DNA of 64,000 nt, from assembly GCA_048886685.1 (NCBI GenBank), contig JBHLKM010000001.1, positions 1 through 64,000 on the forward strand, written 5' to 3'. The notes beneath the pieces are model-generated. The model was not told where the DNA came from. It saw only the letters and a list, made by a program, of their open reading frames with translations, and ran no database searches. This DNA is from Candidatus Hodarchaeota archaeon. Its GTDB lineage: Archaea; Asgardarchaeota; Lokiarchaeia; Sigyniarchaeales; SOKP01. Within the stretch, counting starts at the first letter, position 1; the number at the start of each line of letters is the position of its first letter. The position numbers were made by a program, and so were the translations under genes. Below are positions 17,801-28,567 of the stretch, in pieces.

Positions 17801-17820
17801 ATATGTTAAATCATTTAGTA

Positions 17821-17980
17821 TGGCAAGGGTGGGATTTGAACCCACGATACCCAGATCTTCAGTTTCACCTCTTTCGAGAATCTCGATAGAGCTGGTGCGT
17901 TCGGGGTATTAATTTTTAATTAATCCCTTCCCGGGTTTCGCGGACCTTCATAAAGTGAAGAACCACTACGCCACCTTGCC
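17821..17980 (-). tRNA. tRNA-Phe(GAA) with three introns at 15/16 (17936-17965), 22/23 (17900-17927) and 30/31 (17864-17891)
   Basis: Removing the three BHB-bounded inserts gives GGCAAGG TG GCGT AG^CCCGGGA A^CGC A CCAG^A CTGAAGA TCTGG GTATC GTGGG TTCAAAT CCCAC CCTTGCC A, a fully paired cloverleaf. Confidence 0.9.
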
Positions 17981-18173
17981 AATGATGTTTTATCTTATTT
18001 TTTGATTAGATCTAGATTATAATCACAATTAAGATAAAGAATAAAGTACAGAATCTCATAAAAATCTTTTTAGTCTTCAAGTTTAAAAATAAGCCCTTAA
18101 GAGCCATAAATTTTCAATTTTCAATTTTCCACAATACCGATAATACTTTTTTATTTAAAAAATATAGAAAAAA

Positions 18174-21204: not shown

Positions 21205-21297
21205 TGCGCCGCCCGGGAATCGAACCCGGGTCACTGGCTGTCTTCAATCAGTTCTGACTATGGAAGGCCAGAATCCTAACCCCTAGACTAGCGGCGC
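21205..21297 (-). tRNA. tRNA-Gly(UCC) with a canonical 21-nt 37/38 intron (21240-21260)
   Basis: GCGCCGC acceptor stem; CTGGC CTTCCA^[TAGTCAGAACTGATTGAAGAC]^A GCCAG; BHB with a CTTC/GAAG central helix. Confidence 0.95.
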
Positions 21298-27069: not shown

Positions 27070-28291
27070 CTAAATATAAAAGATATCGATGTTATTAGGT
27101 ATATTAAGGTCATCTTCCTTATTTTTGCAGGCTATAAATTTGATCTTCATATTTATCGAGAGTGAGAGAAGTCTTTTTGTCAAAATTCCATCAATTATTA
27201 GATATTGAGTATCTTTAAAGTTTCTAATCTTTTCAAAAGTTTCCCCAACCGGAATGTCAAATAATTTCTCAAGACTTTTATTAAATCCAATACTGTGACC
27301 CGTTTGTATAGTATCGAGTGCCTCTAAAATTATTGATTCATCTTTTATCTTTGATTTTTTCAAATATTTTTGAAGTGATACCTCTTTACTAGCATATTTT
27401 TTTTCTCCTGCATTACCCTTTTTAATATCTTTTATTTGCTTTGCTGGTCGTTTGTTTTGTAGTGCTTTGATCATTTGTTTTCTAGTTAATTCTTCAACCT
27501 CATATCCATCTGGAGCTCTAGCAACATAATCTAGCTGTAATACTTGCATCAATTCATTTAAAATAATAGTGCCACCGCGATCTCCGTCAAGAAAACATGT
27601 TACTGTTTTTTTCCCTTTTGCTAAATCCATAACTGATTTAGGTATTTGAGTTCCTTGGACGGCAATTGTATTCTTAATACCAATTCGTAATAAATTTAAC
27701 ACATCAGCTCGTCCTTCTACAATAATGAGATCTGGGTTTTTTTCAACTTCTGGGCCTGCTGGAAGATTATCCTTGCCCCATGTTATAATTTCTCCAAGTT
27801 TGATATCCTTATCTATCTTCTCTTCAATTTCACTTTGTTCTAACGACTTTTCATCCCACTTTTTTAAGAGTTCAGCAGCTCTTTCAATAATTTTCTTACG
27901 TTTAGTTTCGCGAACATCTCGAATTTCAATAAGAGAAATTTTTGCCTCGCATGGACCAACTCGAGATACTGTTTCTACAGTCGCCGCCAATAATGCAGTC
28001 TCCTTTCTTGTCAGAGAGGATGGGATTTTAATGATTCCTTCTGATACTCCCTCTTTAGAAATATTTTCTACTTCAATCCGTCCAATTCGTCCAGATTTTT
28101 GGAGATCCCTTAAATCTAAATCCAAAAGAAGACCTTCAGTTTAGCCGATTTGCCGATACGACCCTAACCTTTTATCTTTGGCCGAAAATGGCGCCGACTA
28201 TATCGCTTTTTTCTACAACACCTTTAATTGAAAATTTTACTTCTATAATATATTTAGTTGTAAACTCATTTTGATTTGTAATCTTGATCAC
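27070..28291 (-). CDS. dnaG: Archaeal DnaG (TOPRIM; exosome-associated), split gene: exon 1 28291-28178, intron 28177-28141, exon 2 28140-27070 (394 aa spliced)
   Basis: Exon 1 MIKITNQNEFTTKYIIEVKFSIKGVVEKSDIVGAIFGQ joins exon 2 TEGLLLDLDLRDLQKSGRIGRI. TOPRIM motifs IIVEGRADV and FLDGDRGG are present. Confidence 0.92.
28141..28177 (-). other. 37-nt BHB-type intron in dnaG pre-mRNA
   Basis: GGCC AA^A GAT...ATC GGCT AA^A: a 4-bp central helix (GGCC/GGCU) flanked by two 3-nt bulges and a GAT/ATC intron stem. Standard cleavage restores the reading frame. Confidence 0.85.
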
Positions 28292-28567
28292 TTCCTTTTC
28301 TTTAATTACTTCGTTTTATTACTTCTTACTTTATTCCAAATTTAAAATTTTTATTATGAGATTTAAATTATAACTTGGATAATTTTGATTTTTATGAAAT
28401 AATTTTATTTTGAAATTGAACTTAAAATCATCTTAATTTTGATGATTATAATTTATTTAGTTTATTAAATAATTTATTTTTTGCTAATTTTTGGAATTTT
28501 TAAATAGTTTTTTATGTCATATTTATTTTTGTTATATAATTTGAGAAAAAATTCGAGAGAATCATAA

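What the first reader, a model, noticed from the sequence alone, without database searches (positions are those of the whole stretch)
28141..28177. tRNA-type (bulge-helix-bulge) intron inside the protein-coding dnaG gene
Seen in sequence: the conserved archaeal DnaG motif GAIFGQ-TEGLL is interrupted between Q and T by 37 nt (AGATAAAAGGTTAGGGTCGTATCGGCAAATCGGCTAA). The insert is not a multiple of 3 and has an in-frame TAA as its second codon. It folds as GGCC-AA^A-GAT...ATC-GGCT-AA^A, i.e. a 4-bp central helix, two 3-nt bulges and an intron stem. Cutting after the second bulge nucleotide on each side gives TTC GGC CAA ACT GAA (F-G-Q-T-E) and a 394-aa protein. The outer exon-exon helix is weak, so this is a relaxed BHB. 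Established: the archaeal splicing endonuclease EndA cuts BHBs this way, and the well-known mRNA precedent is crenarchaeal cbf5. Inference: in this probable Asgard archaeon, full-length DnaG requires EndA/RtcB-type mRNA splicing. That would extend mRNA introns to another core gene and could couple DnaG/exosome output to tRNA-splicing capacity. Standard gene callers would only report a truncated gene.
Basis: partly seen in the sequence, partly recalled or inferred. Interest (0 to 1): 0.93.

Follow-up and report, generated by a model that had tools for sequence, protein, structure and literature searches.

The report
tRNA-type intron splitting Asgard dnaG
The only dnaG gene of this Loki-type Asgard archaeon is broken by a 37-base insert shaped like the introns archaea cut out of tRNAs, so its message almost certainly has to be spliced; in the two best-sampled genera, relatives without this intron almost always carry a folded 220-base element in front of the gene instead.

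Summary
Confirmed. A 37-nt insert (28141-28177, minus strand) splits the single dnaG of a Promethearchaeia (Loki) genome between Q38 and T39. Removing it restores a 394-aa DnaG.

50 of 143 related loci have a 29-43-nt insert at this boundary, in all three length classes. All 50 form the 4-bp central BHB helix, which covaries with the Gly wobble base; 0 of 50 do in slid registers. Exon 1 is under purifying selection, exon 2 has no conserved start, and EndA (two subunits) and RtcB are encoded. EndA/RtcB splicing is about 93% likely. I obtained no RNA evidence, and folding software does not favour the BHB.

Not found in earlier scan notes: in two genera plus extra contigs, 56 of 57 intron-less alleles carry a conserved folded ~220-nt element just upstream of dnaG, against 0 of 33 alleles with this intron. 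Near-identical strains swap the whole 5' block. Linkage alone could explain this (4 of 4 informative independent contrasts agree, p=0.125). Three genomes carry a related intron 8 codons upstream.

In the papers I could search, only cbf5 has such a coding-sequence intron. The scan already reported this dnaG intron in other genomes.

The parts
28178..28291 (-). dnaG exon 1 (38 codons, GTG start; holds the KY pair at residues 13-14 and the KSDIVGAIFGQ motif)
   Evidence: Matches NF003108 (archaeal DnaG) positions 1-26, E 6.7e-9. Within-genus pN/pS 0.04-0.16 among intron-bearing genomes. Start inferred from 394-aa intron-less relatives that begin at the same GTG.
28141..28177 (-). 37-nt BHB (HBh') intron, phase 0, between Gln38 and Thr39
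   Evidence: also recovered by a motif-free comparison with an intron-less relative.
28180..28183 (-). 5' strand of the central helix (GGCC, exon); the third base is the Gly wobble
   Evidence: Wobble and partner: C-G 26, U.G 9, A-U 8, G-C 5, G.U 2; none unpaired in 50.
28143..28146 (-). 3' strand of the central helix (GGCT, intron)
   Evidence: Reads GTCT, GTTC or GTTT where the exon has GGAC, and GCCT or GTCT where it has GGGC.
28174..28176 (-). 5' strand of intron helix h' (GAT), pairing with ATC at 28147-28149
   Evidence: First pair G-C in 50 of 50; GAC/GTC in the distant genome G146.
28152..28162 (-). Inner hairpin of the intron (GYC, 5-nt loop, GRC), shared by the 34-43-nt intron family and by the site-2 introns
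   Evidence: GCC/GGC at site 1 (GTC/GGC in this genome), GTC/GAC at site 2.
28178..28219 (-). Exon-1 flank whose synonymous codons track intron presence (Ser as AGC in 34 of 49 intron-bearing alleles, TCA in 54 of 69 intron-less alleles)
27070..28140 (-). dnaG exon 2 (356 codons plus stop; rest of the N-terminal domain, TOPRIM, C-terminal domain)
   Evidence: The ORF from TTG 28125 matches NF003108 from position 34, E 7.8e-108. Gene callers start it at that TTG and give 351 aa (P0001).
28292..28567 (.). Short (276-bp) spacer to the divergent ArsA-family ATPase gene; lacks the ~220-nt folded element that intron-less relatives carry here

Best explanation
This is a real protein-spliced intron in an mRNA. 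The dnaG transcript folds at the junction into a bulge-helix-bulge. The two-subunit tRNA splicing endonuclease EndA cuts after the second base of each bulge, RtcB joins the exons, and the message then encodes full-length 394-aa DnaG. Unspliced RNA stops after 39 codons. Shown: the insert, the restored frame, conservation and covariation of the motif, selection on exon 1, and the presence of the enzymes. Inferred from established archaeal biochemistry: cutting by EndA and joining by RtcB. The intron sits on one of two alternative 5' blocks of dnaG: short spacer plus intron, or long spacer with a folded element and no intron. Lineages exchange these blocks by recombination, which explains the patchy distribution. 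Most likely splicing is simply required for expression; a regulatory role is possible but not shown.
For: (1) 50 of 143 loci carry a 29-43-nt insert at the same codon boundary. Lengths mod 3 are 4/28/18, and the four in-frame inserts all contain stops. (2) The central helix is 4/4 paired in 50 of 50 with five pair types at the wobble position; slid registers give 0 of 50; shuffles 0 of 10000, not corrected for kinship. (3) Exon 1 is intact in every intron-bearing genome where it is covered, with pN/pS like exon 2. It holds the KY pair; in S. solfataricus DnaG the K6A/Y7A mutant loses RNA binding (PMC4227792; equivalence inferred from the motif). (4) The TTG used by gene callers is not conserved: TTA 31, TTG 10 among intron-bearing alleles. 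(5) Single dnaG. Two EndA subunits, one with the Y/H/K triad and one lacking the His, plus RtcB. tRNAs with BHB introns occur in the genome, one in this window. (6) Two more BHB-like breaks in this genome were found without using the motif. (7) Block exchange: an intron-bearing allele and its nearest intron-less relative differ at 2-4% of exon-2 bases but at 16 of 48 bases around the junction.
Against: I obtained no spliced RNA. ViennaRNA puts the BHB helices at about 0 probability here and 0.02-0.17 on average across relatives. The outer exon helix is missing or offset by 2 nt, so folding would need help from the enzyme or from co-transcriptional order. EndA from this lineage has not been assayed. 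Covariation counts are inflated by kinship; there are only about five independent changes.
Confidence: 0.93

Rival explanations
1. Add-on to the best explanation: the intron and the ~220-nt upstream element are interchangeable control devices. Each allele needs one brake on DnaG synthesis, either splicing or a folded leader, possibly read by DnaG or the exosome itself.
For: In genera g1 and g4 plus extra contigs, 56 of 57 intron-less alleles have the element and 0 of 33 site-1 intron alleles do, across 10-11 state changes. Five new contigs fetched as a test all fit. The element is single-copy, lies just before the ribosome-binding site, is 70-80% conserved across genera and was not found anywhere in intron-bearing genomes. 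Its helices are 83% paired with 34 two-sided changes, above all 500 shuffles. Other intron-less genera have different folded spacers. DnaG binds RNA.
Against: The two features lie about 150-200 bp apart and travel on one recombining block, so linkage alone can give the pattern. On well-supported branches 4 contrasts agree, 0 oppose, 1 is uninformative, p=0.125. G056 has both the element and a site-2 intron. RNAalifold finds only one 8-bp helix by itself. Transcription of the element is not shown.
Confidence: 0.27
2. Add-on to the best explanation: the two blocks are alternative ways of resisting a nuclease that targets the conserved KSDIVGAIFGQTEG codons (intron insertion versus synonymous recoding), and the intron spreads by homing with co-conversion of exon 1.
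For: Synonymous divergence between intron-bearing and intron-less alleles peaks in the 14 codons 5' of the site: pS 1.15 for this genome against its nearest intron-less relatives, mostly 0.1-0.5 elsewhere; within-genus mean 0.94 against 0.60-0.62 for like-with-like pairs. Recent transfers between lineages are evident. Site-2 introns differing at 2 of 30 bases occur in different genera.
Against: No endonuclease ORF lies in the intron, in the spacer or next to dnaG in the loci examined. The blocks appear to move in both directions.
Confidence: 0.12
3. No splicing: translation restarts at the TTG at 28125 and gives a 351-aa DnaG without its N-terminus; exon 1 is a remnant or a separate peptide.
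For: Gene callers annotate it so. The BHB is not the predicted stable fold.
Against: The start codon is absent in most intron-bearing alleles. Exon 1 is under purifying selection. It does not explain covariation of the helix.
Confidence: 0.03
4. Ribosomal frameshift, readthrough or bypass across the insert.
For: The Gly codon GGC recurs near the 3' end of the insert.
Against: All three length classes occur and the in-frame inserts contain stops. Landing on the last GGC resumes on TAA, and the inner GGC is out of frame (sequence). Relatives with other Gly codons have no matching landing codon.
Confidence: 0.01
5. Assembly artefact, pseudogene, or an element excised at DNA level.
For: None specific; genome contamination is 8%.
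Against: Present in 50 independent assemblies and in contigs of other DNA runs. No second dnaG. No decay of either exon.
Confidence: 0.02

Closest known systems
BHB intron in the cbf5 pre-mRNA of Crenarchaeota (Watanabe 2002; Yokobori 2009, PMC2738675)
   Same: Short insert in a conserved motif of an RNA-metabolism gene; BHB at the junctions with cuts after the second bulge base; hetero-oligomeric EndA; patchy presence among relatives.
   Different: Different gene and phylum (Promethearchaeota). Phase 0 here, inside the catalytic Asp codon in cbf5. Two insertion sites in dnaG, a shared inner hairpin, block exchange between lineages and alternation with an upstream element are not described in the cbf5 passages I read. 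cbf5 splicing is shown by cDNA; this one is not shown by me.
Archaeal tRNA introns, including Asgard tRNA introns (bioRxiv 10.64898/2026.10.13.758758)
   Same: HBh' geometry, similar size, repeated gains, two-subunit EndA in most Asgard genomes.
   Different: The host is an mRNA, with no tRNA body to hold the outer helix. The preprint's main text has no occurrence of 'mRNA' or 'cbf5'.
Intron in the 5' UTR of Haloferax volcanii HVO_1309 (PMC7714728)
   Same: EndA-cut BHB intron of similar size (46 nt) in an mRNA.
   Different: That one is in an untranslated leader; this one breaks the reading frame. The paper names cbf5 as the only other case.
Archaeal DnaG (NF003108 / PRK04031), exosome-associated RNA-binding protein (PMC4227792)
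   Same: Both exons match the model in order; the genome has an adjacent pair of RNase PH-family genes of the Rrp41/Rrp42 type.
   Different: Gene is split; Csl4 was not found with PF10447, a model that hit only 1 of 14 control genomes.
Intron homing with co-conversion, and free-standing homing endonucleases of T4-like phages (own knowledge, not looked up)
   Same: Flanking exon markers travel with the intron.
   Different: No endonuclease gene found in or near the locus; exchange seems to go both ways.

Membership tests
Archaeal BHB (EndA-spliced) intron | 4-bp central helix between exon and intron | tested here: met
   4/4 pairs here and in 50 of 50 relatives; 0 of 50 in slid registers.
Archaeal BHB (EndA-spliced) intron | Two 3-nt bulges; cuts after the second base restore the product | tested here: met
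   AA|A and AA|A; this register is one of the four that give GAIFGQTEGLL.
Archaeal BHB (EndA-spliced) intron | At least one flanking helix (h or h') | tested here: met
   h' of 3 bp here; at least 2 adjacent pairs in 48 of 50. No h next to the bulge; TTC/GAA can pair with a 2-nt offset.
Archaeal BHB (EndA-spliced) intron | Compensatory change in the motif | tested here: met
   C-G, A-U, G-C, U.G and G.U at the wobble position; GAC/GTC in h' of G146.
Archaeal BHB (EndA-spliced) intron | Motif is thermodynamically favoured in the precursor | tested here: not met
   Predicted helix probability about 0 here, mean 0.02-0.17 over 49 alleles. This is a limit on the model, not part of the published class definition.
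Archaeal BHB (EndA-spliced) intron | Host encodes EndA and an RNA ligase | tested here: met
   Two PF01974 proteins and one RtcB.
Archaeal BHB (EndA-spliced) intron | Spliced RNA or excised intron observed | tested here: inconclusive
   No RNA holder listed; only DNA contigs could be laid. Other scan reports claim joined RNA contigs for dnaG of relatives; not checked by me.
Archaeal BHB (EndA-spliced) intron | Cleavage by the cognate EndA in vitro | not testable with these tools
   Needs a bench assay.
Archaeal DnaG | N-terminal domain, TOPRIM and C-terminal domain; NF003108 above cut-off | tested here: met
   Exon 1 matches positions 1-26; the exon-2 ORF scores 361 bits, cut-off 300.
Homing (endonuclease-driven) intron | Linked endonuclease gene | tested here: not met
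   None in the intron, spacer or neighbouring ORFs of the loci examined; an unlinked one was not searched for.
Homing (endonuclease-driven) intron | Co-conversion of flanking exon | tested here: met
   Local spike of synonymous divergence and segment-wise nearest neighbours; ordinary recombination also gives this.
Known Rfam family (upstream element of intron-less alleles) | Match to a covariance model | tested here: not met
   Four element-bearing loci gave only one sub-threshold hit, E 0.35, in one locus.
MITE (upstream element) | Multiple dispersed copies | tested here: not met
   One full-length copy per genome, next to dnaG wherever dnaG was located; other hits are short AT-rich matches.

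The most novel reading that the evidence does not exclude
In one family of Loki-type Asgard archaea, dnaG exists in two exchangeable regulatory versions: one gated by tRNA-type splicing of a coding-sequence intron, the other by an undescribed ~220-nt folded leader. An endonuclease-spliced mRNA intron would then act as a control switch that can replace a cis-regulatory RNA, in the closest prokaryotic relatives of eukaryotes.
Probability: 0.25. Interest if true: 0.92.

Novelty: new variant of a known kind. Interest (0 to 1): 0.78.

Why it matters
In the papers I could search, cbf5 is the only archaeal coding sequence with a confirmed intron. A conserved, covarying intron in a second core gene, in about a third of sampled Lokiarchaeia, means mRNA splicing by the tRNA machinery is an established route in Asgard archaea. 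It also means databases hold N-terminally truncated DnaG for these genomes, lacking the RNA-binding residues. The locus gives a direct handle on how archaeal introns are gained and lost: near-identical strains differ by the whole 5' block, and a second site 8 codons away carries a related intron. The alternation with a folded upstream element gives a concrete, testable case for a regulatory role.

Tried and rejected
RNA evidence: no RNA holder listed, which says nothing about expression. Laying four DNA runs showed intron-bearing variants only, as short contigs. Exact and degenerate patterns of the joined intron-type junction found nothing in the JGI metagenome contigs; coverage is unknown, so this is not evidence. 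Full-length database proteins close to this genome (P0002, P0003, P0009, P0012, P0116) are intron-less alleles with recoded flanks, not cDNA-like copies. A second protein search near an all-intron clade gave no full-length member.

Genome census: de novo scans for BHB introns were no better than shifted-register controls (926 against 936 and 1009 sites). A search for introns shared with G094 gave 13 against 21 in the control. These gave no count. Only the motif-free comparison with 1.2 Mb of G094 was usable. Probes of scan leads (uvrB, purA, pfk, thiolase) found the frame breaks at uvrB and thiolase but did not confirm their junctions.

Other dead ends: a nested inner intron using the inner GGCA helix gives an out-of-frame product (sequence). 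No conserved long-range exon-exon helix specific to intron alleles was found beyond TTC/GAA and a weak CGAT/GTCG hairpin. The upstream element has no conserved ORF, no Rfam match, and I saw no clear BHB at its base. My first two splicing scripts used a wrong start position; corrected.

Full report
Observation. The minus strand of 27070-28291 encodes archaeal DnaG in two pieces. Exon 1 (28291-28178, GTG start, 38 codons) matches positions 1-26 of NCBIfam NF003108. The downstream frame matches from position 34 with 361 bits. Removing them gives one 394-codon frame reading GAIFGQ|TEGLL; four adjacent registers give the same protein. Unspliced, translation stops at the second codon of the insert. 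It is the only dnaG found in a 4.4-Mb genome rated 100% complete. The nearest named relatives are Promethearchaeia (Loki) MAGs.

The motif. In the register 28141-28177 the junction forms a 4-bp central helix GGCC/GGCT, two AA|A bulges and a 3-bp intron helix GAT/ATC. No exon-exon pair lies next to the bulge; TTC/GAA can pair with a 2-nt offset. [quoted passage not shown] ViennaRNA does not favour this fold: helix probability is about 0 here and 0.02-0.17 on average in relatives. The single sequence is therefore weak evidence, and the case rests on comparison.

Comparison. I searched 149 genomes of the class and cut out the dnaG loci. Of 143 loci, 50 have an insert of 29-43 nt at exactly this boundary. 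Lengths mod 3 are 4, 28 and 18, and the four in-frame inserts contain stops, which excludes frameshifting and readthrough. All 50 form four central pairs; no register slid by 1-3 nt does so in any. The Gly wobble base and its partner vary together: C-G 26, U.G 9, A-U 8, G-C 5, G.U 2. A genome of another family (G146) also changes the intron helix to GAC/GTC. These counts overstate independence, but the pair types fall in separate genera. Exon 1 is intact in all intron-bearing genomes where it is covered, with within-genus pN/pS of 0.04-0.16, similar to exon 2. The TTG at which gene callers start the 351-aa product is TTA in most intron-bearing alleles. Exon 1 carries the KY pair; in S. solfataricus the K6A/Y7A mutant loses RNA binding (PMC4227792; equivalence inferred from the motif).

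Machinery and context. The genome encodes two EndA subunits, one with the Tyr/His/Lys triad and one lacking the His, and RtcB. It has intron-bearing tRNAs, including a tRNA-Gly with a textbook 21-nt BHB intron in this window. A motif-free comparison with 1.2 Mb of an intron-less relative covered about 900 orthologous frames and found four distinct frame-breaking inserts. These are dnaG, a canonical 30-nt BHB on C2, a 30-nt insert with 3/4 central pairs and a 6-bp intron stem just before the WCGPC motif of a thioredoxin, and a 102-nt gap that is probably a gene boundary. De novo scans gave no usable count.

History. Presence is patchy: at least 6 and up to 12 changes on the DnaG tree. Three genomes lack the site-1 intron but carry a 30-31-nt intron 8 codons upstream with the same kind of inner hairpin. 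Two of these differ at 2 of 30 bases yet sit in different genera among intron-less relatives. Synonymous divergence between this genome and its closest intron-less relatives is mostly 0.1-0.5 along the gene but 1.15 in the codons just 5' of the site. An intron-bearing allele (P0008) and intron-less G135 differ at 2-4% of exon-2 bases but at 16 of 48 bases around the junction, where P0008 is within 2 bases of this genome. G035 has an exon 1 of the intron type on an exon 2 nearest to intron-less G094. The 5' end of dnaG is therefore exchanged between lineages as a block. This is not precise loss through cDNA, which would leave the flanks unchanged.

An unexpected partner. In genus g1 the spacer to the divergent ArsA-family gene is 250-350 bp in intron-bearing genomes and 490-580 bp in intron-less ones. 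The extra DNA holds an AT-rich non-coding element of about 220 nt that ends just before the ribosome-binding site and is 70-80% conserved between genera g1 and g4. It has nested inverted repeats. A four-part structure that I drew by hand is 83% paired with 34 two-sided changes, above all 500 shuffles and above slid controls; RNAalifold alone finds one 8-bp helix. It has no Rfam match, is single-copy, and was not found anywhere in intron-bearing genomes, this one included. In genera g1 and g4 plus extra contigs, 56 of 57 intron-less alleles have it and 0 of 33 site-1 alleles do. Five contigs fetched afterwards as a test all fit. On well-supported branches four independent contrasts agree, none oppose and one is uninformative (p=0.125). 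One site-2 genome has both. Other intron-less genera have unrelated folded spacers. Physical linkage on a recombining block can explain the pattern; functional equivalence is the bolder reading.

Mechanism. Most likely (0.93) the pre-mRNA is cut by EndA at the two bulges and joined by RtcB, as for cbf5 (PMC2738675). The insert, frame, covariation, selection and enzymes are shown; cutting and joining are inferred. I found no RNA data. Restart at TTG (0.03), ribosomal bypass (0.01) and artefact, pseudogene or DNA excision (0.02) are contradicted by the comparison. On top of splicing, a regulatory swap between intron and leader has about 0.27 and nuclease-driven homing about 0.12; no endonuclease gene is linked.

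Novelty. Searches of the held literature found no report of coding-sequence introns in Asgard archaea. A 2020 paper names cbf5 as the only other mRNA case beside a Haloferax 5' UTR intron; the 2009 cbf5 paper notes that introns in other protein genes had been predicted but not confirmed. The library lacks most subscription papers. This scan has already reported the same dnaG intron in other genomes and similar introns in other Asgard genes, some with claimed joined RNA contigs that I could not check. Verdict: real, very probably spliced, a new variant of a known kind; interest 0.78.

Noticed in passing
L004:1128-1347, L013:2702-2922 (minus), alignment A1: Conserved single-copy ~220-nt folded non-coding element upstream of dnaG in intron-less genomes of two genera; no Rfam match; mutually exclusive with the site-1 intron.
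   Followed up: yes
L029, L120, L131 (G056, G096, G041): Second dnaG intron site inside the Ile codon of KSD-I-V, 30-31 nt, BHB-shaped, with the same kind of inner hairpin. G096 and G041 share a third type of folded spacer.
   Followed up: partly
L186, L192 (G013, G002; family f5): The dnaG frame is open for only 9 codons upstream of GALFG, so these genomes may have a further break or intron near the start.
   Followed up: no
L191 (G146, family f4): 29-nt intron at the same dnaG site in a distant family, with compensated helices.
   Followed up: partly
L126, L112, L139, L123, L137, L129, L134, L153 (genera g6, g7, g13, g9 and G081): Intron-less alleles outside g1/g4 have other long folded spacers before dnaG, unrelated in sequence to the g1/g4 element.
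   Followed up: partly
window 21205-21297 (minus): ARAGORN's tRNA-??? is tRNA-Gly(TCC) with a canonical 21-nt BHB intron at 37/38 (about 21240-21260).
   Followed up: yes
window 17820-17981 (minus): 162-nt tRNA-like gene with several hairpin inserts, probably multi-intron; identity unresolved.
   Followed up: no
G000 C1:288829-288858 (minus), outside the window: 30-nt insert with an in-frame stop, 6-bp stem and 3/4 central pairs directly before the WCGPC active site of a thioredoxin; absent in G094.
   Followed up: partly
G000 C2:163694-163723 (minus): Canonical 30-nt BHB insert with stops in a conserved gene that is intact in G094.
   Followed up: partly
L134 and L160 (G081): One bin holds two dnaG copies, one intron-less and one with a 38-nt intron; probably a mixed bin.
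   Followed up: no
window 28289-28291: dnaG starts at GTG overlapping a purine-rich ribosome-binding word; several relatives have no ATG or GTG at that place, so a downstream ATT or ATA start is possible.
   Followed up: no
L279, L281 (G000 C16:67098-68278): Adjacent pair of RNase PH-family genes of the exosome-core type; a third RNase PH-family gene on C26; Csl4 not found with PF10447.
   Followed up: partly
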